Origin: Escherichia phage vB_EcoM_H12
Reading direction: 5' to 3' (one strand)
Sequence record: PP952733.1
DNA length: 64,000 bases
In this document: positions 11,089 through 33,197 of the stretch, one piece after another
Layout: every line of letters starts with the position of its first letter
Numbering within the stretch: position 1 is the stretch's first letter
Program-made: the position numbers and the translations under genes
Notes under the pieces: model-generated
Seen by the model: only the letters and a program-made list of their open reading frames with translations
Told to the model about the DNA's origin: nothing
The model's database searches: none

Positions 11089-11165
11089 CTCTGTTTAGCT
11101 CAGCTTGGTAGAGCGTTCCGTTTGGGGCGGTAAGGCCGGAGGTTCAAGTCCTCCAACAGAGACCA
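11089..11165 (+). tRNA. tRNA-Pro (anticodon UGG)
   Basis: Cloverleaf folded by hand: 7-bp acceptor CTCTGTT/AACAGAG, anticodon loop TTTGGGG, T-arm GGAGG-TTCAAGT-CCTCC, CCA encoded. Confidence 0.85.
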
Positions 11166-11172
11166 AATTAAT

Positions 11173-11250
11173 GTTCCAGTAGACAAAATGGTAAAGTCAC
11201 CACTCTTTCAAAGTGGATATTTGAGGGTTCAAATCCCTTCTGGAACGCCA
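11173..11250 (+). tRNA. tRNA-Glu (anticodon UUC)
   Basis: Acceptor GTTCCAG/CTGGAAC, anticodon loop CTTTCAA, T-loop TTCAAAT, CCA encoded. Confidence 0.8.
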
Positions 11251-11257
11251 GTTTTGA

Positions 11258-11330
11258 CAGAAGACCAATTGCAGCAAACTTAATCTTATTCATCTGACAC
11301 GAAATCGGACAAAGAAGAGATTTGGTCTGG
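11258..11330 (+). ncRNA. Stem-closed RNA-like element A (CAGAAGACCAAT...TTTGGTCTGG)
   Basis: Terminal inverted repeat AGACCAA/TTGGTCT enclosing about 50 nt; conserved CAGCAA next to 5' arm; one of four related elements. Confidence 0.4.
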
Positions 11331-11341
11331 TCATTAAGAAT

Positions 11342-11418
11342 TGCGGGTATAGAGAAAGGGCGTCTCACATGTCTCATTAGCATGGTATCGGCAGGTTCGA
11401 CTCCTGCACCCGCCTCCA
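11342..11418 (+). tRNA. tRNA with anticodon CAU (Met or Ile2 type)
   Basis: Anticodon loop CTCATTA, T-arm GCAGG-TTCGACT-CCTGC, CCA encoded; first acceptor pair mismatched. Confidence 0.75.
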
Positions 11419-11424
11419 AATTTA

Positions 11425-11488
11425 CAGAAGACCGTTTACAGCAATATTTATTAAATTTTTAGCGGAAAAATTGAAAGATACGGTCTGG
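11425..11488 (+). ncRNA. Stem-closed RNA-like element B (CAGAAGACCGTT...ACGGTCTGG)
   Basis: Terminal inverted repeat AGACCGT/ACGGTCT; compensatory changes relative to elements A and C. Confidence 0.4.
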
Positions 11489-11501
11489 TAATACTAAACA
11501 T

Positions 11502-11578
11502 GGTTAGGAAGCACATAAGGTATGTGCGGTCGCCTGTTAAGCGAATGGCACAGGGTTCGAATCCCTGACTAACCGCCA
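11502..11578 (+). tRNA. tRNA-Asn (anticodon GUU)
   Basis: Anticodon loop CTGTTAA, T-arm CAGGG-TTCGAAT-CCCTG, CCA encoded. Confidence 0.8.
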
Positions 11579-11587
11579 AATTTAAAT

Positions 11588-11675
11588 GTGTCGTTATCCC
11601 GTAGATGGTAGCGGTGGGGACTGTAAATCCCTTGTCATTGAGACTCGGTAGGTTCGACTCCTACACGGCACACCA
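11588..11675 (+). tRNA. tRNA-Tyr (anticodon GUA), long variable arm
   Basis: Anticodon loop CTGTAAA, about 14-nt variable arm, T-loop TTCGACT, CCA encoded. Confidence 0.8.
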
Positions 11676-11681
11676 AATAAA

Positions 11682-11759
11682 GGTTATGTAGTTTAATCTG
11701 GTTAAAATACTCCCCTGTCACGGGAGATGATGAGGGTTCAAATCCCTTCGTAACCGCCA
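11682..11759 (+). tRNA. tRNA-Asp (anticodon GUC)
   Basis: Anticodon stem CTCCC/GGGAG with loop CTGTCAC, T-loop TTCAAAT, CCA encoded. Confidence 0.8.
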
Positions 11760-11845
11760 AATTATAATAAGTATTTCAAAATGATGTTTGAGAGGGCTAT
11801 TCAGCCCCTCCCTTAAAGAGTTTTTACGAGTATTCTTTAAAGGAG

Positions 11846-11918
11846 CAGAAGACCAAATTCAGCAAGTTACTTAAAATTTCAAGCCAATTTAATTTTGAAA
11901 AATTTAAAACTTGGTCTG
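11846..11918 (+). ncRNA. Stem-closed RNA-like element C (CAGAAGACCAAA...TTGGTCTG)
   Basis: Terminal inverted repeat AGACCAA/TTGGTCT; conserved CAGCAA after 5' arm. Confidence 0.4.
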
Positions 11919-11932
11919 ACTCAACAAATTTA

Positions 11933-12064
11933 CAGAAGACCGTTTACAGCAAAACTTAAACAATCTATTTCTCCGGTAAAGAAAAGGCGAAGGTTCGATT
12001 CCTTCACTCGGCAGATGTCGAGTTGGTGTAATGGTAGCACTTAAGATGATAAACAACGGTCTGG
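11933..12064 (+). ncRNA. Stem-closed element D with permuted tRNA-like module (Y RNA-like candidate)
   Basis: Closing stem AGACCGTT/AACGGTCT; inside, in order: T-arm GAAGG-TTCGATT-CCTTC (11989-12005), 7-bp hairpin ACTCGGC-AGAT-GTCGAGT (12006-12023), D-arm-like TGGTGTAATGGTAGCAC; no anticodon arm or CCA. Confidence 0.45.
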
Positions 12065-12065
12065 T

Positions 12066-12209
12066 AATTATCTTTGTAGATAAGTTATTAAGCTTACTTG
12101 TGAGTATGCGACCACAAAGGGTGAAAGGGTAAATTCTAGATTTAAACCCAACAACGCACATCGCTACAGACCTTAAGCAAGTCTGGGTAGCTTATCTACA
12201 AAGATAATT
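12066..12209 (+). repeat. 19-bp perfect inverted repeat (AATTATCTTTGTAGATAAG / CTTATCTACAAAGATAATT) enclosing about 105 nt
   Basis: Arms at 12066-12084 and 12191-12209 are exact reverse complements; inner hairpin CAGAC-CTTAAGCAA-GTCTG. Confidence 0.6.
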
Positions 12210-12223
12210 TAATGGAAGTGTAG

Positions 12224-12289
12224 CAGAATGGTGATGCGGCAGACTTTTAATCTGACAGGCGATGGGTTCGAATCCCTCCACTTCTACCA
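12224..12289 (+). tRNA. tRNA-Lys (anticodon UUU)
   Basis: Acceptor GGAAGTG/CACTTCT, anticodon loop CTTTTAA, T-loop TTCGAAT (T-stem has two mismatches), CCA encoded. Confidence 0.7.
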
Positions 12290-12293
12290 ATAT

Positions 12294-12370
12294 GGTTCAG
12301 TCGCAGATAAGGTAATGCAGGGGTCTCATAAGCCCTATGAATGTGGGTTCGATTCCCATCTGAACCTCCA
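12294..12370 (+). tRNA. tRNA-Met (anticodon CAU), second copy
   Basis: Anticodon stem with three consecutive G-C pairs, loop CTCATAA, T-arm GTGGG-TTCGATT-CCCAT, CCA encoded. Confidence 0.75.
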
Positions 12371-12371
12371 A

Positions 12372-12447
12372 GCTGGTATAGTTAAGAAGGTTATAACACT
12401 CCCCTGATAAGGGAACATCGGTGGTTCGATTCCACCTACCAGTACCA
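12372..12447 (+). tRNA. tRNA-Ile (anticodon GAU)
   Basis: Anticodon loop CTGATAA, T-arm GGTGG-TTCGATT-CCACC, CCA encoded. Confidence 0.8.
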
Positions 12448-12462
12448 ATTTCAATAAAGTTG

Positions 12463-12491
12463 TTGACATTGAGATGTGACCACTTTATAGT
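12463..12491 (+). promoter_or_regulatory. Sigma70-like promoter TTGACA-17-TATAGT inside tRNA array
   Basis: TTGACA at 12463-12468, TATAGT at 12486-12491, upstream A-tract. Confidence 0.55.
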
Positions 12492-12783
12492 AACTAAAAT
12501 ACTTCATAATATGTATAATTCAAACACCAATACATGAGCGTTAGACGTAACACAATGTGGGGAAATTTGTTGTACATATTCTGAATAGTTTTCGTTGCGT
12601 AGCGTCTATTTTGCAAATTTAAAATAAATGCAAACGACAATGTTTTTCTGGCAGTAGCTTGATAGGCTAAACACCAGTGAGGTCTTCCAATCCCTCATCA
12701 AAGAATTTGGCGTACTAGCCCACGGTATGATTAATAAGGTGGGCATCTTTAAGTACTTTCTAAGAGAGTCTTTAAAGATTAAT

Positions 12784-12860
12784 GCACCCTTAGTTCAATT
12801 GGATAGAGCAACGGTCTTCTAAATCGTTAGTTACAGGTTCGAATCCTGTAGGGTGTGCCA
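12784..12860 (+). tRNA. tRNA-Arg (anticodon UCU)
   Basis: Acceptor GCACCCT/AGGGTGT, anticodon stem ACGGT/ATCGT with loop CTTCTAA, T-loop TTCGAAT, CCA encoded. Confidence 0.8.
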
Positions 12861-13001
12861 AATAGTTAGCAGATTGCTTAGACGACCTTATCGGGTCTCC
12901 GTGTAAGGAGGTGGTCTGTATCTCATGTTTCCAGAACATGTAAATAATCTGAGAAGGGGCTTTACAGTGTTGCGAAAATACGGTAAGCTTCGAATTATAG
13001 T

Positions 13002-13084
13002 GTGGGACGATGTTAAGACTCTAAGGCATGAGCAACGGCCTCCAAAACCGTTTCAAAGGGGTTCAACTCCTCCGTCCCATGCCA
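13002..13084 (+). tRNA. tRNA-Trp-like (anticodon CCA), atypical expanded D region
   Basis: Acceptor GTGGGAC/GTCCCAT, anticodon loop CTCCAAA, T-arm AGGGG-TTCAACT-CCTCC, CCA encoded; about 26 nt between acceptor and anticodon stem. Confidence 0.45.
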
Positions 13085-13097
13085 AAGTCTTATTAGG

Positions 13098-13185
13098 GGT
13101 AGGTAGCGGCTAATGGCAGCCAAACAGTCTTGAAAACTGTTGCCACTGTAGAGATACGGTGAGGGTTCGACTCCTTTACTTACCG
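13098..13185 (+). tRNA. tRNA-Ser (anticodon UGA), long variable arm
   Basis: Anticodon stem ACAGT/ACTGT with loop CTTGAAA, long variable arm, T-loop TTCGACT; CCA not encoded. Confidence 0.75.
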
Positions 13186-13340
13186 CCTAATAAGATTTAA
13201 AACCAAGCTTCATTCGGATGTTGCTTTGGTATCCCTCGTGTATTGTCGTACACAAGTAAAGCACCTAGTAGGTGTCACGGAGAAGAGATAATATCAAGCT
13301 CTCCAAAGGTTCTAGTCACCGGATTAAACAAGACTATGCA

Positions 13341-13361
13341 AAGACCTATTTAGGTCTTTTT
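13341..13361 (+). terminator. Terminator-like hairpin inside tRNA array
   Basis: AAGACCT-ATTT-AGGTCTT followed by TTT; AT-rich stem so probably weak. Confidence 0.4.
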
Positions 13362-13440
13362 AGAGGGCTTCTAAGGTTATTACAGCTTGTTGTGGAACCT
13401 TGTTGCTTAGGTTCTTAGAAGTTCTCTAAAAAGATTTAAT

Positions 13441-13518
13441 GGGAGATTGACGGTAATTGGTAAACCTACCATCCTTAGAAGTTGGTGTTTGAGGGTTCGA
13501 ATCCCTTGTCTCCTACCA
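13441..13518 (+). tRNA. tRNA with anticodon UAG (leucine-type anticodon) but short variable arm
   Basis: Acceptor GGGAGAT/GTCTCCT, anticodon loop CTTAGAA, 5-nt variable loop, T-arm GAGGG-TTCGAAT-CCCTT, A73, CCA encoded. Confidence 0.7.
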
Positions 13519-13525
13519 AATTAAT

Positions 13526-13601
13526 GCAGGTGTAGCAAAATGGTTATGCGGCTGACTCTTAATCAGTAAGACGATGGGTTCAATTCCCTCCACCTGTACC
13601 A
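13526..13601 (+). tRNA. tRNA-Lys (anticodon CUU)
   Basis: Close paralog of the UUU tRNA at 12224; anticodon loop CTCTTAA; CCA encoded. Confidence 0.75.
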
Positions 13602-13605
13602 AATT

Positions 13606-13681
13606 GGGGTCATAGTTTATATGGTTAAAATTCGAGTTTTGCAAACTTGGGAACTGAGTTCAATTCTCAGTGACTCCACCA
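13606..13681 (+). tRNA. tRNA-Ala (anticodon UGC)
   Basis: Acceptor GGGGTCA/TGACTCC, anticodon loop TTTGCAA, T-arm CTGAG-TTCAATT-CTCAG, CCA encoded. Confidence 0.8.
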
Positions 13682-13687
13682 ATTAGT

Positions 13688-13762
13688 GCATCCATAGTTT
13701 AAACGGGAAAATTACAGTCTTCCAAACTGAGGTTGAGGGTTCGATTCCCTCTGGATGCTCCA
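13688..13762 (+). tRNA. tRNA-Gly (anticodon UCC)
   Basis: Acceptor GCATCCA/TGGATGC, anticodon loop CTTCCAA, T-arm GAGGG-TTCGATT-CCCTC, CCA encoded. Confidence 0.8.
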
Positions 13763-13769
13763 AATTAAT

Positions 13770-13845
13770 GCTCCTATCGTATAATTGGCTATTACGGTTG
13801 CCTTGTAAGCAACTTATCAGGGTTCGAATCCTTGTGGGAGCACCA
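13770..13845 (+). tRNA. tRNA-Thr (anticodon UGU)
   Basis: Acceptor GCTCCTA/TGGGAGC, anticodon stem GTTGC/GCAAC with loop CTTGTAA, T-loop TTCGAAT, CCA encoded. Confidence 0.8.
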
Positions 13846-13850
13846 ATTCA

Positions 13851-13936
13851 GAGGTCAAGTGAAAGACCGCTTTGAGTCAACTGAAGACCGTAACAAATCC
13901 CACGGAGTTGAGTTAGCGGCACAACTTCAGACCTCT
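13851..13936 (+). ncRNA. Structured hairpin element between tRNA-Thr and tRNA-Val
   Basis: 6-bp closing inverted repeat GAGGTC/GACCTC around about 75 nt with nested complementary segments (TCAACT/AGTTGA) and a GAAGACCGT motif; no canonical T-loop. Confidence 0.35.
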
Positions 13937-13941
13937 TTCAT

Positions 13942-14016
13942 ACTCGCTTAGTTTATATGGTAAAACATCACCCTTACAAGATGAAGAAAAAGGTTCAAGC
14001 CCTTTAGTGAGTACCA
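13942..14016 (+). tRNA. tRNA-Val (anticodon UAC)
   Basis: Acceptor ACTCGCT/AGTGAGT, anticodon loop CTTACAA, T-arm AAAGG-TTCAAGC-CCTTT, CCA encoded. Confidence 0.7.
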
Positions 14017-14017
14017 T

Positions 14018-14095
14018 GTTCCAGTATCCCAATTGGCAGAGGATGCAAGCTCAAACCTTGTACTAGTGACGGTTCGAATCCGTCTTGGAACACCA
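14018..14095 (+). tRNA. tRNA with anticodon CAA (leucine-type anticodon) but short variable arm
   Basis: Acceptor GTTCCAG/TTGGAAC, anticodon stem GCAAG/CTTGT with loop CTCAAAC, 6-nt variable loop, T-arm GACGG-TTCGAAT-CCGTC, A73, CCA encoded. Confidence 0.7.
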
Positions 14096-14100
14096 ATTTT

Positions 14101-14176
14101 GCAGGATTAGTTCAAATGGATAGAGCAACAGTCTACGAAGCTGTTAATAGGGGTTCGAATCCCTTATCCTGCGCCA
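14101..14176 (+). tRNA. tRNA-Arg (anticodon ACG)
   Basis: Acceptor GCAGGAT/ATCCTGC, anticodon stem ACAGT/GCTGT with loop CTACGAA, T-loop TTCGAAT, CCA encoded. Confidence 0.8.
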
Positions 14177-14195
14177 ATTTAAAGAGGCTATTTAG

Positions 14196-14753
14196 ATGAG
14201 ATATTTGAAGTATGCTTCATGGATTTTCTTAGCTTTGTTAGAGCCATTTGCAGCAATCTTAGCAGTTATCTTAGCACCTTTTGTAGTTCCATTCTACAGT
14301 GAAAAGAAAGGACACTTACCTTTCGGCTTCAGATGGATGGAAACATATGACAACCCAATTGATGGTGATGAAGGTCATGTTGAACGATGGGCTAAGATTA
14401 GAAAGATTGGTAAGCTTGGTGTCTATATGCAGAGAGTTGGTTGGCTCTGGAGAAACAAAGCTTATAACTTCTCTTACCATGTGTTAGGAAGAGATGTAAA
14501 AGATGTTACTAAGTGGAAAGGTAATATCAATGTAAGTTCTAACCCTGAAGATAATCAGACAGGTTATCTCCTAATGTGGAACAGTAATGCTTGGGGATTA
14601 TTCGCTTTTATCCCATCAATTAAAGTCTTTGGTAAGCAATTCTACTGGAGAATTTATGTTGGATGGAAACTTAAAAGTGTTGTTCCAAAAGAAAGAGCAT
14701 TCTCAAGGGAAAGAGTTATGTTGGCATTCTTTATTCATCCACTAAGAAAGTAA
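14196..14753 (+). CDS. putative membrane protein (185 aa) encoded inside the tRNA array
   Basis: AAAGAGG RBS; N-terminal hydrophobic helix (WIFLALLEPFAAILAVILAPFVVPF); Trp-rich. Confidence 0.55.
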   Translation: MRYLKYASWIFLALLEPFAAILAVILAPFVVPFYSEKKGHLPFGFRWMETYDNPIDGDEGHVERWAKIRKIGKLGVYMQRVGWLWRNKAYNFSYHVLGRDVKDVTKWKGNINVSSNPEDNQTGYLLMWNSNAWGLFAFIPSIKVFGKQFYWRIYVGWKLKSVVPKERAFSRERVMLAFFIHPLRK

Positions 14754-14761
14754 AGATTTAA

Positions 14762-14837
14762 AGGGGATTAGTTTACAAGGTTAAAACCTCGGTCTTTGAA
14801 ATCGAAGAAGTTGGTTCAATTCCAACATCCCCCGCCA
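14762..14837 (+). tRNA. tRNA-Gln (anticodon UUG)
   Basis: Anticodon stem TCGGT/ATCGA with loop CTTTGAA, T-arm GTTGG-TTCAATT-CCAAC, CCA encoded; first acceptor pair mismatched. Confidence 0.75.
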
Positions 14838-14839
14838 AT

Positions 14840-14918
14840 GCTCCATTACTCCAATTGGTAGAGAGGCCAGACTTAAAATCTGTGTTATGTATCGGTTCGA
14901 ATCCGATATGGAGTACCA
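14840..14918 (+). tRNA. tRNA with anticodon UAA (leucine-type anticodon) but short variable arm
   Basis: Acceptor GCTCCAT/ATGGAGT, anticodon loop CTTAAAA, about 7-nt variable loop, T-arm ATCGG-TTCGAAT-CCGAT, A73, CCA encoded. Confidence 0.7.
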
Positions 14919-14923
14919 AATTT

Positions 14924-14999
14924 AGCGGTATAGCATAACTGGCAATGCAGCAGTCTCTGAAGCTGTCTTATTAAGGTTCAAATCCTTATGCCGCTGCCA
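14924..14999 (+). tRNA. tRNA-Gln (anticodon CUG)
   Basis: D-stem GCAT/ATGC, anticodon stem GCAGT/GCTGT with loop CTCTGAA, T-loop TTCAAAT, CCA encoded. Confidence 0.7.
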
Positions 15000-15030
15000 C
15001 TTCTAAGGATTCTTACGAGAGTCCTTAAAT

Positions 15031-15106
15031 GTGGCCTTATCATAAATGGTAATGACCCATGCTGTGAACATGGTCTATACGGGTTCAAATCCCGTAGGTC
15101 ACCCCA
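15031..15106 (+). tRNA. tRNA-His (anticodon GUG)
   Basis: Acceptor GTGGCCT/AGGTCAC, anticodon stem CCATG/CATGG with loop CTGTGAA, T-arm ACGGG-TTCAAAT-CCCGT, CCA encoded. Confidence 0.8.
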
Positions 15107-15111
15107 ATTTA

Positions 15112-15188
15112 TAGTCCAAGTAGCTTATATGGTTAAAGCGCGTGTCTGAAAAACATGAGAAGAGGGTTCAAATCCCACTGGACTACCA
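15112..15188 (+). tRNA. tRNA-Phe (anticodon GAA)
   Basis: Acceptor TAGTCCA/TGGACTA, anticodon loop CTGAAAA, T-loop TTCAAAT. Confidence 0.75.
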
Positions 15189-15204
15189 ATTTCAAAGGTG
15201 CTTA

Positions 15205-15939
15205 ATGAAAGAGATGACAGAACAAGGTAAGGAGATTTTTAATCTCTTAAAAACTGGTAAAGGGTTATCTAACCCCCTTATTACTGGTGCAGCAGTTCTC
15301 GGTGGAACAGTAGCTGCCTCTACATCACTTGTAAGCTCTATTAGCTCTGTAACAGACCCTACAATAAAGGATAAGCTTATTGCTGCTGGACTTACAACAG
15401 TTCTGCTTAACAGCTTTACCACAAGTCTGACAAGCACTACATCAACTACTAAAACACTGACAGATTACGGTCAAAAGTCCATTGATGAGTTTTCATCACG
15501 TATGCAGGTAGCAAAAGGTTATTCTAATGTTATGGGTGCAGCAGGTGAACAAGTTGGCTGTACACCATTTAGTGGTATTATGGGTGTTGCTACAGAGTAC
15601 GGTCAAAAAGCTATTGACACAATTAACAGCACACTAGACGGTGTTAATGATGTATTAAGTGACTTACAAGACGCTATTGACAAAGGTCTTGATACTATTT
15701 CTGATTTAGCTAACCAAGCTGTTAGTAAGATTAATGAAGGTATCTCGAAGATTACAGCTTATGCAGATGAAGTTGTGCAGATGATTGAAGAAGAAGCTGC
15801 CCTTATTGCAGAGTACCTTAAAACAAATATCAATGGGTTCTTAGCAGGTATCTTACCAGACTGGTTTGATGATGCTTGTAAAACTGGTGTAATTGATACT
15901 ATTGCAACACCAGAGATGAAGAACGCATTACAGAAATAA
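15205..15939 (+). CDS. hypothetical Ser/Thr-rich protein (244 aa) inside the tRNA array
   Basis: Start moved from track 15142 to ATG 15205 (AAAGG RBS) so it does not overlap tRNA-Phe; low-complexity S/T segment. Confidence 0.5.
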   Translation: MKEMTEQGKEIFNLLKTGKGLSNPLITGAAVLGGTVAASTSLVSSISSVTDPTIKDKLIAAGLTTVLLNSFTTSLTSTTSTTKTLTDYGQKSIDEFSSRMQVAKGYSNVMGAAGEQVGCTPFSGIMGVATEYGQKAIDTINSTLDGVNDVLSDLQDAIDKGLDTISDLANQAVSKINEGISKITAYADEVVQMIEEEAALIAEYLKTNINGFLAGILPDWFDDACKTGVIDTIATPEMKNALQK

Positions 15940-15941
15940 AT

Positions 15942-16034
15942 GGAAGATTAACCCTAAAAGGTAAGGGAGCAGTTTGCTAAACTGCCAGTAGCTGAGAAAT
16001 CGGTGTACCAGTTCAAGTCTGGTATCTTCCTCCA
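15942..16034 (+). tRNA. tRNA-Ser (anticodon GCU), long variable arm
   Basis: Acceptor GGAAGAT/ATCTTCC, anticodon stem GCAGT/ACTGC with loop TTGCTAA, long variable arm, T-arm ACCAG-TTCAAGT-CTGGT, CCA encoded. Confidence 0.8.
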
Positions 16035-16038
16035 ATTT

Positions 16039-16114
16039 GAATCCGTGACAGAAATGGATATGTACCTGTCTGCAAAACAGGTTTATAAGGGTTCGAGTCC
16101 CTTCGGATTCTCCA
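16039..16114 (+). tRNA. tRNA-Cys (anticodon GCA)
   Basis: Acceptor GAATCCG/CGGATTC, anticodon stem CCTGT/ACAGG with loop CTGCAAA, T-loop TTCGAGT, CCA encoded. Confidence 0.8.
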
Positions 16115-25284: not shown

Positions 25285-26637
25285 ATGTGGAATCCAATTG
25301 TTAATGTAGATATTACATTGAACACCGCAGGAACTACAAGAGAAGGTTTTGGGCTGCCACTATTTTTAGCTTCAACAGATAACTTTGAAGAAAGAGTCCG
25401 TGGTTACACTTCCTTAACTGAAGTTGCTGAAGATTTCGATGAAAATTCTGCTGCATATAAGGCTGCTAAACAACTTTGGAGTCAGACTCCTAAAGTAACT
25501 CAGCTTTATATTGGTAGACGTGCTATGCAGTACACTGTATCAATTCCTGATGAGGTTACTGAGAGCACCGACTATTCTTTAACTGTAGCTGTGAGCGGTG
25601 GAGTTTCTCAGCCATTCCAGTACACTTCACAGTCAGAAGATACTGCTGAGAAGGTGCTACAGCAGCTTAAAACTCAGATTGAAGCAGAACCTTCTGTAAA
25701 AGACCTTGTTACTGTCAATGTAACTGGTGCTGGCGGTTCAGCAACAATGGTAATCACCAAAGCTGGTGTCAACGACTTCGTGAAGGTTACTACTACAGCA
25801 CAAACAGTGTCAATTGCAAGCACAACTGCTGACACAGCATCGACTGCTCTGGCAGCTATTGAAGCGTATTCAACTGACTGGTATTTCATTGCAGCAGAAG
25901 ACAGAACTCAACAGTTTGTCTTAGCAATGGCTTCTGAGATTCAAGCTCGTAAGAAGATTTTCTTTACAGCTAACTCCGATGTAGCAGCACTGCAAGGTAC
26001 AGAATTAGCGAGTGCAAATGATGTTCCAGCACAGCTTGCTAAGAATCAGTACACTCGTACAGTTTGCTTGTGGCATCACACAGCAGCAGAAGACTATCCA
26101 GAAATGGCTTATATTGCTTATGGTGCTCCGTATGATGCAGGTTCAATTGCTTGGGGTAACGCACAGTTAACTGGTGTAGCTGCTTCTCTACAGCCATCTA
26201 ATCAGAGACCTCTGACAAGTATTCAGAAGTCAGCTTTAGATGCACGTCACTGTAACTTTATTGACCTTGATGGTGGTGTTCCAGTGGTTCGTAGAGGGAT
26301 TACTTCTGGTGGGGAATGGATTGATATCATCCGTGGTGTTGACTGGTTAGAATCAGACCTGAAAACTTCTCTGAGAGACTTGCTAATTAACCAGAAGGGT
26401 GGTAAGATTACTTATGATGATACTGGTATTACCCGTATTCGTCAAGTCATTGAAACCTCTCTGCAAAGAGCAGTCAACAGAAACTTCCTGTCATCTTACA
26501 CAGTTAATGTTCCTAAAGCCTCTCAAGTTGCTTTGGCAGACAAGAAAGCTCGTATCCTGAAAGATGTTACCTTCGCAGGTATCTTGGCAGGGGCTATCTT
26601 GGATGTTGACTTGAAAGGTACAGTGGCTTACGAATAA
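25285..26637 (+). CDS. putative tail sheath protein (450 aa)
   Basis: Size and position upstream of a 148-aa tube-like protein, chaperones and tape measure; no motif. Confidence 0.45.
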   Translation: MWNPIVNVDITLNTAGTTREGFGLPLFLASTDNFEERVRGYTSLTEVAEDFDENSAAYKAAKQLWSQTPKVTQLYIGRRAMQYTVSIPDEVTESTDYSLTVAVSGGVSQPFQYTSQSEDTAEKVLQQLKTQIEAEPSVKDLVTVNVTGAGGSATMVITKAGVNDFVKVTTTAQTVSIASTTADTASTALAAIEAYSTDWYFIAAEDRTQQFVLAMASEIQARKKIFFTANSDVAALQGTELASANDVPAQLAKNQYTRTVCLWHHTAAEDYPEMAYIAYGAPYDAGSIAWGNAQLTGVAASLQPSNQRPLTSIQKSALDARHCNFIDLDGGVPVVRRGITSGGEWIDIIRGVDWLESDLKTSLRDLLINQKGGKITYDDTGITRIRQVIETSLQRAVNRNFLSSYTVNVPKASQVALADKKARILKDVTFAGILAGAILDVDLKGTVAYE

Positions 26638-26652
26638 TAGAGGTAAATTGGA

Positions 26653-27099
26653 ATGGCTATGTATCAGCAATATTCCCCTAAAGACGTTGTGTGTAGCTGG
26701 AATGGTATTGCCATTGAAGGCTTTGCCCCAGACTCATTCTTACGTCTACAGAGAACATCACCACTTGTGACACCAGTTGTAGGTGCAGGTGGTCAGGTTG
26801 CTCTGACAAGAAATGCAGACAAGACAGGTACTATTGAGATTGAGCTAATGCAGACTTCTCTCTCTAATCAGATGCTTTCTGCAATTCAAGCTAAACAAGA
26901 CAATATGGAACTTGAAGAAGATATCTCTTCTAACTTCGTAATCTACGACCCATCAGGCTCTGTTCTGGCAACTGGTATTAATGCTTGGTTGCAGGAATTA
27001 CCACAGATTGAACTTGGTCGTGACCAGAACTCTAAAACTTGGATTTTTGGTTGTGAGAAGCTAGACTACACTTCTACAATTCCAGCGTCAAGTGTTTAA
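26653..27099 (+). CDS. putative tail tube protein (148 aa)
   Basis: Size and position; followed by a strong terminator-like hairpin. Confidence 0.45.
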   Translation: MAMYQQYSPKDVVCSWNGIAIEGFAPDSFLRLQRTSPLVTPVVGAGGQVALTRNADKTGTIEIELMQTSLSNQMLSAIQAKQDNMELEEDISSNFVIYDPSGSVLATGINAWLQELPQIELGRDQNSKTWIFGCEKLDYTSTIPASSV

Positions 27100-27111
27100 T
27101 AAATCCTATAA

Positions 27112-27144
27112 GGGGGAGACTTTAAAAGGTCTTCCCCTTTTTTG
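27112..27144 (+). terminator. Rho-independent terminator after putative tail tube gene
   Basis: GGGGGAGAC-TTTAAAAG-GTCTTCCCC hairpin followed by TTTTTTG. Confidence 0.65.
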
Positions 27145-27172
27145 TTTCTTTTAAAAGTATTAAGGAATCACA

Positions 27173-27571
27173 ATGAAAACAGAATCTAGAGTAATTAATG
27201 GTAAGAAAGTAAATATCGTTCTGCTTGGGGCAAGAGATGGTATTAAGATGTCTATGAAGTTGGGTAAAATTGTTGTTCCAACATTTGCACAGATGCTGTC
27301 AAGCCTGACTGATAAAGATAAGAAAGAAGCTCCAATGGTTCCATTTAAAGAACTTGTTGAAGCTTGTTTTGACAGAATTGAAGAAATTAACCTTGAAGAA
27401 ATGGCTACCCTGTTATTTCAAGGGGCAACTGTTGATGACTTCCCACTTAATATTGATACATACTTCCAAGCAAACTATGGTGAATTTATTGATTACTTAG
27501 TATTTGCGCTGGAGGCAAACTTCGGAAGTTTTTTCGAAGCAAGCATTTTCAAAAGCCTAACTTCTCAGTAA
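27173..27571 (+). CDS. tail assembly chaperone (132 aa)
   Basis: Position upstream of tape measure; slippery heptamer near 3' end. Confidence 0.55.
   Translation: MKTESRVINGKKVNIVLLGARDGIKMSMKLGKIVVPTFAQMLSSLTDKDKKEAPMVPFKELVEACFDRIEEINLEEMATLLFQGATVDDFPLNIDTYFQANYGEFIDYLVFALEANFGSFFEASIFKSLTSQ
27529..27535 (+). other. Candidate -1 frameshift slippery heptamer T_TTT_TTC
   Basis: X_XXY_YYZ heptamer aligned to the zero frame; the -1 frame runs without a stop into the downstream 79-aa ORF. Confidence 0.5.
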
Positions 27572-27573
27572 AC

Positions 27574-27812
27574 ATGGGTAACACTCTACAGACACCACTG
27601 ACTGATGCTGCTGTAGAGGCAACCTATGAAGAAGCAGACGAGATGAAATTTGTGCTTGCTATTTATGGTATGGAAGGGTGTAAAGAAACACTTGACCAAC
27701 TCTTTGCTATGACATTCTCTGATTTATTATCATTGAGACAATTTCTTGAGATTCAGAGGTCGTATAAAGAGGAAATTGCTTACAACGAACTTAGAAGAGC
27801 AGGAAAAATGTA

Positions 27813-27813
<1 letters not shown>
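27574..27813 (+). CDS. tail assembly chaperone frameshift extension (79 aa ORF in -1 frame)
   Basis: In -1 frame relative to 27173..27571 and abutting tape measure start. Confidence 0.45.

Positions 27814-33197
<5,384 letters not shown>

What the first reader, a model, noticed from the sequence alone, without database searches (positions are those of the whole stretch)
27529..27535. Probable programmed -1 frameshift in the tail assembly chaperone pair
The heptamer T_TTT_TTC is aligned to the zero frame 37 nt before the stop of 27173..27571, and the -1 frame is open from there through the downstream 79-aa ORF, which ends at the tape measure start. This matches the conserved G/GT chaperone frameshift upstream of tape measure genes in tailed phages. 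The expected fusion product would be about 210 aa.
Basis: partly seen in the sequence, partly recalled or inferred. Interest (0 to 1): 0.5.

Follow-up and report, generated by a model that had tools for sequence, protein, structure and literature searches.

The report
Tail chaperone G/GT -1 frameshift site
This is the usual programmed backward ribosome slip that lets a Felix O1-type phage make a short and a long tail-assembly chaperone from one gene pair; it looks real and strongly conserved, but it is already annotated and published for this phage group.

Summary
T_TTT_TTC lies at 27529-27535 in phase with the 132-aa ORF 27173..27571. The -1 frame is open from 27535 to 27813 and includes the 79-aa ORF. 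It ends in TAATG with the tape measure start. The predicted fusion is 213 aa.

The window is a Felixounavirus, 99.9% identical to Escherichia phage vB_EcoM_DE17. The upstream ORF is a Pfam Phage_TAC_15 tail assembly chaperone and sits between the tube and tape measure genes.

- **Conservation:** T_TTT_TTY occurs at the homologous Ser/Cys-Phe-Phe position in every relative examined: 9 GenBank phages from 7 lineages and 72 of 72 IMG/VR loci (21 clusters at 50% identity). Some relatives share only 24-26% protein identity or have 65% G+C. The -1 frame is always open for 76-124 codons.
- **No own start:** most lineages lack a start codon for the downstream segment.
- **Stimulators:** there is no stable 3' structure in this clade. 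A GGAGG lies 13 nt upstream and is kept at a synonymous site, so it may be a 5' stimulator.

The frameshift is already annotated as a joined CDS in Salmonella phage Meda and Citrobacter phage Mordin. It is stated in the Moogle, Michonne and Mijalis announcements and described for 231 Andersonviridae in a 2025 paper. No experiment was found. Verdict: correct, ordinary, already known.

The parts
26653..27099 (+). Tail tube-like virion structural protein gene (148 aa). It is the upstream neighbour that fixes the locus as the tail-tube / chaperone / tape-measure module.
   Evidence: Pfam KPP10_Orf10 at 3.2e-07 and phrog_280 at 1.2e-47. It follows the sheath gene 25285..26637 (phrog_205 tail sheath, 1.6e-125).
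27173..27571 (+). G-type (TAC-N) tail assembly chaperone ORF, 132 aa. This is the product of standard translation.
   Evidence: Pfam Phage_TAC_15 at 2e-19 (70.8 bits, cut-off 22). phrog_1613 'tail assembly chaperone' at 1.4e-48. AAGGA at 27162-27166 lies 6 nt before the ATG.
27511..27515 (+). GGAGG, a Shine-Dalgarno-like pentamer 13 nt upstream of the heptamer. It is a candidate 5' stimulator that would pair with the anti-SD of the translating ribosome. This role is inferred.
   Evidence: Sequence. The Glu codon here is GAG followed by G in 44 of 50 unique relatives, against 19.5 expected from local codon usage. It is the majority form in 17 of 21 clusters at 50% identity. The 13-nt spacing lies within the 9-14 nt reported for -1 stimulation (PMC5009743).
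27529..27535 (+). Slippery heptamer T_TTT_TTC. The P-site codon is TTT and the A-site codon is TTC, both read by tRNA-Phe(GAA).
   Evidence: In-phase position. It is conserved as T_TTT_TTY in 9 of 9 GenBank relatives from 7 lineages and in 72 of 72 IMG/VR loci. Nucleotide identity among three Ounavirinae genera peaks at 0.98 across 27526-27555, against a mean of 0.80.
27535..27571 (+). Dual-coding overlap. The zero frame encodes the G tail (EASIFKSLTSQ, then stop). The -1 frame encodes the start of the extension (RSKHFQKPNFSV).
   Evidence: Translations. The nucleotides are almost invariant across Felixounavirus, Mooglevirus and Suspvirus.
27535..27813 (+). T (TAC-C) segment: 92 codons in the -1 frame. 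It includes the mechanically called 79-aa ORF 27574..27813 and ends in TAATG with the tape measure start.
   Evidence: phrog_4963 'tail assembly chaperone' at 2.8e-55. The segment is conserved as protein across the family. The ATG at 27574 has no SD and is ATA in a 98%-identical relative (L022). Most other lineages have no start codon near this position.
27813..30041 (+). Tape measure protein gene (742 aa), the expected client of the chaperones.
   Evidence: Pfam TMP_3 at 2.3e-17 and phrog_4036 at E = 0.

Best explanation
The window carries the tail module of a Felixounavirus (Andersonviridae, Ounavirinae). Most ribosomes translating the chaperone gene 27173..27571 stop at TAA 27569-27571 and make the 132-aa chaperone (G, or TAC-N).

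A minority slip when TTT (27530-32) is in the P site and TTC (27533-35) is in the A site. Both tRNA-Phe(GAA) molecules re-pair one base back, on TTT (27529-31) and TTT (27532-34). Decoding then resumes at CGA 27535 in the -1 frame and adds 92 residues up to TAA 27811-27813. The product is a 213-aa G-T fusion (TAC-NC) with junction sequence ...ANFGSFF/RSKHFQKP....

By analogy with lambda gpG/gpGT, the shared N-terminal part coats the tape measure protein (27813..30041). The rare T extension recruits the tube protein. Neither chaperone ends up in the virion.

The slip probably runs at a low, fixed level of a few per cent or less. No 3' stem-loop exists in this clade, and the only candidate enhancer is the GGAGG 13 nt upstream.

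Shown: the sequence anatomy, its conservation and the family membership. Inferred: the slip itself, its frequency, the role of the GGAGG and the assembly function.
For: - **Anatomy:** the heptamer is in phase, the -1 frame is open for 92 codons, and it ends at the tape measure start.
- **Identity:** the G ORF is Pfam Phage_TAC_15 and phrog_1613. The T ORF is phrog_4963. Neighbours are sheath and tube upstream and tape measure downstream. The window is 99.9% identical to Escherichia phage vB_EcoM_DE17.
- **Conservation of the heptamer:** TTTTTTC sits at the same position with 92-94 open -1 codons in Mooglevirus, Suspvirus, Kolesnikvirus, Yersinia phage P778 and Pectobacterium phage Wc4-1. In Vequintavirinae CR8 and Av-05 (26% identity) it has 123-124 open codons. 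In IMG/VR, 72 of 72 loci have T_TTT_TTY with 76-105 open codons, and 21 of 21 clusters at 50% identity carry it.
- **Synonymous-site selection:** given the peptide, the heptamer is expected in 9.2 of 50 unique sequences and observed in 50. In genomes with G+C of 0.55 or more, 0.5 are expected and 13 observed.
- **Nucleotide conservation:** identity peaks at 0.98 over the heptamer and overlap.
- **T has no start of its own:** this holds in most lineages, and the start is lost (ATA) in one Felixounavirus.
- **Motif class:** H_HH.U_UU.Y is among the most efficient in E. coli and is used by IS elements (PMC4066793).
- **Independent curation:** joined CDS 'Tape measure chaperone frameshift product' in Meda, a Felixounavirus with 97% identity in G, and in Mordin. 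Statements appear in PMC4319497, PMC4591319 and PMC5543628. A conserved GTTTTT motif was reported in 231 Andersonviridae (PMC12846349).
Against: - I found no experimental demonstration in this phage group: no junction peptide and no reporter assay.
- There is no significant RNA structure downstream in this clade. The 90 nt after the site fold with z = -0.76. The 55 nt from +3 fold at -3.2 kcal/mol with z = +1.3. Efficiency may therefore be very low, since the motif alone gives only somewhat above 0.1% in reporter constructs.
- The IMG/VR set was retrieved with a peptide pattern that requires Ser/Cys-Phe-Phe. It tests codon choice, not the presence of the peptide.
- The sequences are phylogenetically related, so the P values quoted are upper bounds on significance.
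- A product identical in sequence could arise from an mRNA with one extra U.
Confidence: 0.88

Rival explanations
1. Transcriptional slippage instead of ribosomal slippage. RNA polymerase adds one extra U on the T6 run at 27529-27534. Standard translation of that minority mRNA then yields the same 213-aa fusion.
For: - The site is a homopolymer run, T6 in the window and T7 in 7 of 72 relatives.
- A weak hairpin lies directly upstream of the T run and was flagged as terminator-like (27509-27525). Upstream hairpins can enhance slippage (PMC5009743).
- The protein product would be identical, so peptide data cannot separate the two mechanisms.
Against: - Productive bacterial transcriptional slippage is described for runs of about 9 A or T (PMC5009743). 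Here the run is 6.
- The run always starts at the third base of the preceding codon (NNT TTT TTY) in 72 of 72 loci. It is never NNV TTT TTT, which would give an equally long run. That phasing is the rule for tandem tRNA slippage and is irrelevant to polymerase.
- The upstream hairpin is weak (6 pairs, 2 of them G-U). By my own reading of the relatives' sequences it is not clearly conserved.
Confidence: 0.05
2. Two separate proteins. The 79-aa ORF is translated on its own from ATG 27574, for example by termination-reinitiation 2 nt after the G stop. No fusion is made, and the heptamer is incidental.
For: - In the window an ATG lies 2 nt after the G stop codon.
- Most GenBank records of felixounaviruses annotate two independent 'tail assembly chaperone' CDSs.
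Against: - No SD precedes ATG 27574 (upstream sequence CCTAACTTCTCAGTAAAC).
- The codon is ATA in a 98%-identical Felixounavirus (L022).
- There is no start codon at or near this position in Kolesnikvirus, Yersinia P778, Wc4-1, Vequintavirinae and most metagenomic lineages, although the T segment is conserved as protein.
- The -1 frame stays open upstream of the ATG back to the heptamer in all lineages.
- Codon choice maintains the heptamer against genomic bias.
Confidence: 0.04
3. Chance. An in-phase heptamer near the end of a gene whose neighbour happens to lie in the -1 frame.
For: In-phase X_XXY_YYZ heptamers are common in this window (80 found). One falling in the roughly 26-codon two-frame-open stretch is about a 10% event.
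Against: Conservation in 21 of 21 protein clusters and 81 of 81 loci examined, including genomes with 65% G+C where the expectation is about 4% per sequence.
Confidence: 0.01

Closest known systems
Phage lambda gpG/gpGT tail assembly chaperones (Levin, Hendrix & Casjens 1993; Xu, Hendrix & Duda 2004, 2013, 2014, as summarised in PMC5009743)
   Same: - Two overlapping ORFs lie directly upstream of the tape measure gene.
[quoted passage not shown]
- The minor fusion product shares the whole N-terminal chaperone.
- In lambda no 3' stimulatory structure is needed (from my own knowledge). None is detectable here.
   Different: - Lambda is a siphovirus and uses G_GGA_AAG (from my own knowledge). This is a myovirus using T_TTT_TTC.
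- The chaperone belongs to a different Pfam family (Phage_TAC_15), and no sequence similarity to lambda gpG was tested here.
- Lambda's 30:1 ratio and its function are experimentally established. Here nothing is.
Annotated frameshift in Felix O1-like phages: Salmonella phage Meda MH586731 (Felixounavirus), Citrobacter phages Mordin KT363872, Moogle, Michonne and Mijalis (Mooglevirus)
   Same: It is the same gene pair, the same heptamer at the homologous position and the same 213-aa-type fusion. Meda has 97% identity in G and a joined CDS noted as 'Tape measure chaperone frameshift product'.
   Different: Nothing substantive. The window's nearest relatives (DE17, EC6, ekra and others) annotate two separate CDSs.
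TAC-N/TAC-NC frameshift of Vandenendeviridae (Pseudomonas phage Adele, Pakpunavirus) and Andersonviridae (PMC12846349)
   Same: That paper reports an invariant GTTTTT motif near the 3' end of TAC-N and an uninterrupted -1 frame. It covers 56 alleles from 159 Vandenendeviridae and 231 Andersonviridae. Andersonviridae is the family that contains Felixounavirus. The motif is the same as the G-TTTTT inside AG TTTTTTC here.
   Different: In the passages I read, the paper describes the signal as GTTTTT and not as the phased heptamer T_TTT_TTY. Those passages do not mention the upstream GAGG.
E. coli dnaX and IS3/IS911-type -1 frameshift signals
   Same: There is an in-phase heptameric shift site with an internal Shine-Dalgarno-like sequence 9-14 nt upstream. 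U_UU.U_UU.C is one of the heptamers used by IS elements.
   Different: dnaX and most IS signals also have a 3' stem-loop or pseudoknot and reach tens of per cent. This site has no 3' structure. The action of its SD-like element is untested.
Phage P2 gpE/gpE+E' (Christie et al. 2002; recalled from memory, not checked here)
   Same: A myovirus tail chaperone pair upstream of the tape measure gene, with a -1 slip on a run of T (TTTTTTG, as I recall).
   Different: It is a different protein family and tail lineage.

Membership tests
G/GT-type tail assembly chaperone programmed -1 frameshift (Xu, Hendrix & Duda 2004) | The gene pair is located between the major tail (tube) gene and the tape measure gene | tested here: met
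   The order is sheath 25285..26637, tube 26653..27099, G 27173..27571, T to 27813, then tape measure 27813..30041.
G/GT-type tail assembly chaperone programmed -1 frameshift (Xu, Hendrix & Duda 2004) | The second ORF is in the -1 frame, overlaps the 3' end of the first, and is open back to the shift site | tested here: met
   The -1 frame is open from 27535 to 27813, 92 codons. The same holds in all 81 related loci examined.
G/GT-type tail assembly chaperone programmed -1 frameshift (Xu, Hendrix & Duda 2004) | A canonical slippery heptamer X_XXY_YYZ lies in zero-frame phase within the overlap | tested here: met
   T_TTT_TTC at 27529-27535. It belongs to the efficient H_HH.U_UU.Y class in E. 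coli.
G/GT-type tail assembly chaperone programmed -1 frameshift (Xu, Hendrix & Duda 2004) | The shift site and two-frame organisation are conserved among homologues beyond what the protein sequence requires | tested here: met
   The heptamer is present in 50 of 50 unique sequences against 9.2 expected from codon usage, and in 21 of 21 clusters. Nucleotide identity peaks at 0.98.
G/GT-type tail assembly chaperone programmed -1 frameshift (Xu, Hendrix & Duda 2004) | The downstream segment is not expressed on its own | tested here: inconclusive
   Sequence evidence only. There is no SD before ATG 27574, the ATG is lost in L022, and most lineages have no start codon there. Expression was not measured.
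G/GT-type tail assembly chaperone programmed -1 frameshift (Xu, Hendrix & Duda 2004) | The fusion protein is made at a low fixed ratio. Both products are required for tail assembly and absent from virions. | not testable with these tools
   This needs proteomics, reporter assays and genetics. The Bas63 cryo-EM paper mentions no such chaperone in its text (PMC12609058). The only 'chaperone' hit there is in a reference title, so this is weak negative evidence.
Pfam Phage_TAC_15 (PF21822) | The score against the family HMM is above the curated gathering threshold over most of the model | tested here: met
   70.8 bits against a cut-off of 22. E = 2e-19. Residues 9-124 match model positions 1-124 of 127.
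SD-stimulated -1 frameshift (dnaX / IS type) | A Shine-Dalgarno-like sequence lies 9-14 nt 5' of the shift site | tested here: met
   GGAGG at 27511-27515 is 13 nt upstream. The spacing rule is from PMC5009743. GAG-G is kept in 44 of 50 unique sequences and 17 of 21 clusters.
SD-stimulated -1 frameshift (dnaX / IS type) | A 3' stem-loop or pseudoknot lies 5-9 nt downstream | tested here: not met
   The window folds with z = -0.76 (90 nt) and z = +1.29 (55 nt, -3.2 kcal/mol). Only some GC-rich distant relatives have a 9-12 bp stem starting 6-8 nt downstream.
SD-stimulated -1 frameshift (dnaX / IS type) | Mutating the SD lowers frameshifting | not testable with these tools
   This needs a reporter assay.
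Programmed transcriptional slippage | A long homopolymer run, about 9 A or T in bacterial examples | tested here: not met
   The run is T6 in the window and T6-T7 in relatives. The criterion is from PMC5009743.

The most novel reading that the evidence does not exclude
The frameshift in this chaperone family may be tuned by a conserved internal Shine-Dalgarno-like GAGG (GGAGG in the window, 27511-27515), not by a 3' RNA structure. The element sits at a fixed 13 nt upstream of T_TTT_TTY. It is held in place by synonymous selection on a Glu codon across lineages that share only about 25% protein identity. Lineages that lack it, or that live in GC-rich hosts, may compensate with a 3' hairpin. I did not find this 5' element mentioned in the annotations or in the passages of the papers I read.
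Probability: 0.4. Interest if true: 0.25.

Novelty: already known. Interest (0 to 1): 0.1.

Why it matters
There is little new biology here. The practical value is in annotation. Most of the roughly 300 public Felix O1-like genomes, including the window's nearest relatives, list two separate 'tail assembly chaperone' or 'hypothetical' genes. They should carry a short product plus a joined 213-aa frameshift product.

Felixounaviruses are widely used for Salmonella and E. coli biocontrol and typing, so correct tail-module annotation matters for engineering them. Recoding or codon-optimising this region would destroy the heptamer and probably tail assembly.

The deep conservation makes this chaperone family a clean natural data set for studying how shift sites and their stimulators co-evolve. 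It spans 21 protein clusters and 35-65% G+C, and it shows a possible trade-off between a 5' SD-like element and a 3' hairpin.

Tried and rejected
- **3' stimulatory structure:** I folded 27536-27625 and 27500-27680 and the 55 nt from +3 in 50 distinct related downstream sequences, including the window.
- **Hairpin at 27584-27621:** it is real but lies about 50 nt downstream, too far to act at the mRNA entry channel. I did not pursue it.
- **AlphaFold2 of G from a single sequence:** mean pLDDT was 41.5, which is unusable, so no fold search was run. An alignment-based model would have needed the expensive protein-database search.
- **Profile search of solved structures with the G alignment:** nothing significant. 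The best full-length match was 5ir0_A 'uncharacterized protein ORF19' at E = 0.18, and the nsp8 hits at E about 0.04 are spurious.
- **NCBIfam:** no family matched either ORF.
- **Second candidate from the in-window scan:** A_AAG_GGG at 30823-30829 is the ribosome-binding site of the next gene, whose ATG is at 30838.
- **Terminator-like hit at 27509-27535:** I considered it as support for transcriptional slippage. I rejected it as weak and, by my reading, poorly conserved.
- **Vladimirov et al. 2022 on T4-like chaperones:** I tried to read it, but it is not held in the library.

Full report
**1. Observation**

The sequence at 27529-27535 is T TTT TTC. ORF 27173..27571 (132 aa) starts at 27173, and 27530-27173 = 357 is a multiple of three. 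TTT (27530-32) and TTC (27533-35) are therefore codons 120 and 121, and the heptamer is in the X_XXY_YYZ phase needed for tandem -1 slippage.

After a slip, decoding resumes at CGA 27535. That frame is open for 92 codons to TAA 27811-27813. It contains the ATG (27574) of the mechanically listed 79-aa ORF. It ends in TAATG, sharing one base with the ATG of the 742-aa ORF 27813..30041.

The heptamer is separated from the G stop codon by 33 nt (11 codons). The fusion would be 121 + 92 = 213 aa.

**2. Is it more than chance?**

Taken alone, barely. A crude gene call of the window contains 80 in-phase X_XXY_YYZ heptamers. One falling in the roughly 26 codons where both frames are open is about a 10% event. 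Only two of the 80 are followed by a -1 frame open for 40 or more codons. The other (A_AAG_GGG, 30823-30829) is simply the ribosome-binding site of the next gene, which has its own ATG at 30838. The case therefore rests on context and conservation.

**3. Context**

The window is a Felix O1-like myovirus. The region 26650-28100 is 99.9% identical to Escherichia phage vB_EcoM_DE17 and at least 95% identical to about 210 other records, mostly Escherichia and Salmonella felixounaviruses. NCBI taxonomy places the genus in Andersonviridae, Ounavirinae.

The gene order is as follows:
- sheath, 25285..26637 (phrog_205);
- tube-like protein, 26653..27099 (Pfam KPP10_Orf10, phrog_280);
- a strong intrinsic terminator, 27110-27149;
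- the 132-aa ORF (Pfam Phage_TAC_15, 70.8 bits against a cut-off of 22; phrog_1613 'tail assembly chaperone', 1.4e-48);
- the 79-aa ORF (phrog_4963 'tail assembly chaperone', 2.8e-55);
- the tape measure protein (Pfam TMP_3, phrog_4036).

This is the canonical position of the G/GT chaperone pair.

**4. Conservation**

I fetched the locus from representatives of other genera. TTTTTTC occupies the homologous position, in phase, in all of them:
- Mooglevirus (Mordin), Suspvirus (EcSzw-2), Kolesnikvirus (phiEa104, FIfi106), Yersinia phage P778 and Pectobacterium phage Wc4-1, with 92-94 open -1 codons ending at the tape measure gene;
- Vequintavirinae CR8 and Av-05, which share only 26% identity in G, with 123-124 open codons.

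A scan of IMG/VR with the conserved peptide E[AVK]N[FY][GKS][SC]FF returned 72 loci, including metagenomic phages down to 23-30% identity and up to 65% G+C. All 72 have T_TTT_TTY (65 with C, 7 with T), followed by 76-105 open -1 codons.

Because the pattern fixes the peptide, the informative test is codon choice. The Ser/Cys codon must end in T and the first Phe must be TTT.
- From each locus's own codon usage, the heptamer is expected in 9.2 of 50 unique sequences. It is present in 50.
- In the 13 sequences with G+C of 0.55 or more, 0.5 are expected and 13 observed.
- Grouped by single linkage at 50% identity of the fusion protein, 21 of 21 clusters carry the heptamer.
- Among Felixounavirus, Mooglevirus and Suspvirus, mean pairwise nucleotide identity is 0.80 over the locus but 0.98 in 27526-27555. 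That stretch covers the heptamer and the dual-coding overlap.

These sequences are related, so the nominal probabilities overstate significance. The per-cluster result does not depend on them.

**5. The downstream segment is not an independent gene**

Its translation aligns across the whole family. The Ounavirinae share ...MTFSDLLSLRQFLEIQ..., and distant lineages share ...W(S/T)LDD(L/V)..A..(L/V)LD(M/A)..., so it is protein-coding.

The ATG at 27574 has no Shine-Dalgarno sequence. It is ATA in a 98%-identical Felixounavirus (L022). It is absent, or lies deep inside the segment, in Kolesnikvirus, P778, Wc4-1, Vequintavirinae and nearly all metagenomic lineages. Several GenBank records accordingly annotate nothing, or only a 37-aa fragment, in that interval. 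The only consistent way to express the segment is as an extension of G.

**6. Mechanism**

- **Shift site.** The P- and A-site codons UUU and UUC are both read by tRNA-Phe(GAA), and after a -1 slip both face UUU, a cognate codon. Systematic measurements in E. coli put U_UU.C second only to A_AA.G among tetramers. They place H_HH.U_UU.Y heptamers among the most efficient. They list U_UU.U_UU.C among motifs with more than 0.1% shifting without any stimulator, and IS elements use it (PMC4066793).
- **No 3' stimulator in this phage.** The 90 nt after the site fold no better than shuffles (z = -0.76). The 181-nt context gives z = -1.1. The 55 nt from +3 fold at only -3.2 kcal/mol (z = +1.3). Some GC-rich distant relatives do have a 9-12 bp stem starting 6-8 nt downstream (L070-L084, L075). 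Stimulators therefore appear to be lineage-specific.
- **Candidate 5' element.** GGAGG at 27511-27515 lies 13 nt before the heptamer. This is within the 9-14 nt window in which an internal Shine-Dalgarno sequence stimulates -1 shifting in dnaX and many IS elements (PMC5009743). It is formed by a Glu codon plus the next G. That codon is GAG in 44 of 50 unique sequences, against 19.5 expected. In lineages where GAG is the minor codon it is GAG in 27 of 31, against 8.9 expected. It is the majority form in 17 of 21 clusters. The -1 frame is not translated upstream of the shift site, so dual coding cannot explain this preference. I regard a stimulatory role as plausible but unproven.
- **Expected level and function.** By analogy with lambda I expect a low, fixed frameshift level. 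In lambda the G:GT ratio of about 30:1 is critical, G coats the tape measure and T recruits the tube protein (PMC5009743). I expect the same division of labour here. These functional steps are inferred.

**7. Rivals**

- **Transcriptional slippage.** It would give the identical protein. However, the run is only T6, whereas productive bacterial cases use about 9. The strict NNT TTT TTY phasing in 72 of 72 loci is a ribosomal requirement, not a polymerase one. A weak hairpin-plus-T-run flagged at 27509-27535 is marginal and not clearly conserved.
- **Independent initiation of the 79-aa ORF.** This is contradicted by section 5.
- **Chance.** This is excluded by section 4.

**8. Comparison with what is known**

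This is a member of the G/GT class defined by Xu, Hendrix and Duda (2004). All sequence-level criteria are met. The biochemical ones cannot be tested here.

It is also not new for this group:
- Salmonella phage Meda, a Felixounavirus with 97% identity in G, carries a joined CDS labelled 'Tape measure chaperone frameshift product' with the same coordinates relative to the heptamer.
- Citrobacter phage Mordin has the same joined CDS.
- The genome announcements of the Felix O1-like phages Moogle, Michonne and Mijalis state the -1 frameshift explicitly (PMC4319497, PMC4591319, PMC5543628).
- A 2025 paper on Pseudomonas phage Adele reports an invariant GTTTTT motif at the 3' end of TAC-N and an uninterrupted -1 frame. 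It covers 159 Vandenendeviridae and 231 Andersonviridae genomes (PMC12846349).

Most felixounavirus records, including DE17, EC6, ekra and Felix O1 itself, still annotate two separate ORFs.

**9. Verdict**

The feature is already known and interest is low.

- the phased T_TTT_TTY form of the signal holds across 21 protein clusters, against strong codon bias;
- this clade has no 3' structure;
- the nominal start codon of the 79-aa ORF has been lost in one close relative;
- a synonymously conserved GAGG at -13 may be a 5' stimulator.

**10. What failed**

A single-sequence AlphaFold model of G was unusable (pLDDT 41.5). A profile search of solved structures gave nothing significant. NCBIfam has no model for either ORF.

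Noticed in passing
window 11089-16114: A cluster of 26 tRNA genes on the + strand. It includes tRNA-Phe(GAA) at 15113-15188, the species that would occupy both sites during the slip on T_TTT_TTC. The phage therefore supplies its own copy of the shifting tRNA.
   Followed up: no
window 27110-27149: A strong intrinsic terminator (13-bp stem AAGGGGGAGAC.../...GTCTTCCCCTT, then a T run) lies between the tube gene and the chaperone gene. A terminator is annotated at the same place in Meda and Mordin. It probably lowers transcription of the chaperone and tape measure genes relative to sheath and tube.
   Followed up: partly
window 30823-30829: This is the only other in-phase heptamer in the window with a long open -1 frame. 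A_AAG_GGG lies 9 nt before the stop of 30041..30838 and leads into 30838..31179. The AAAAAGGGGA stretch sits 8 nt before that gene's own ATG, so it is most simply its ribosome-binding site and not a recoding signal.
   Followed up: partly
window 27584-27621: A hairpin with an 8-bp outer stem (CUCUACAG/CUGUAGAG) lies inside the T segment, about 50 nt downstream of the heptamer. In EcSzw-2 and Mordin the inner stem is CCCCA/UGGGG and CCCCG/CGGGG respectively, a compensatory A-U to G-C change. It is too far downstream to be a classical stimulator, and its function is unknown.
   Followed up: no
window 27509-27535: A weak hairpin (6 pairs, 2 of them G-U) followed by the T run was flagged as terminator-like. 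It overlaps both the SD-like GGAGG and the slippery heptamer. It may be a by-product of the conserved peptide LEANFGSFF.
   Followed up: partly
loci L070-L084 and L075 (IMG/VR), 6-8 nt after the heptamer: GC-rich distant relatives carry a 9-12 bp stem-loop (for example CCGCGAGCG...CGCTCGCGG) at the classical spacing downstream of T_TTT_TTC. The window's clade has none. This suggests lineage-specific swapping of stimulators.
   Followed up: partly
locus L022 (IMGVR_UViG_3300045988_004167), position homologous to window 27574: A Felixounavirus contig 98% identical in G has ATA in place of the ATG of the '79-aa ORF'. Gene callers would truncate or miss that ORF there.
   Followed up: yes
GenBank records LR597658 and LR597663 (VpaE1_ev108 and VpaE1_ev78): The features listed under the match to this locus are named 'Ne1 neck protein', 'Hc1 head closure protein', 'Tail sheath protein' and 'Tc1 tail completion protein', where other records have tube, chaperones and tape measure. 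In one of them the G gene itself is labelled 'Hc1 head closure protein'. This is probably an offset or automated mis-annotation.
   Followed up: no
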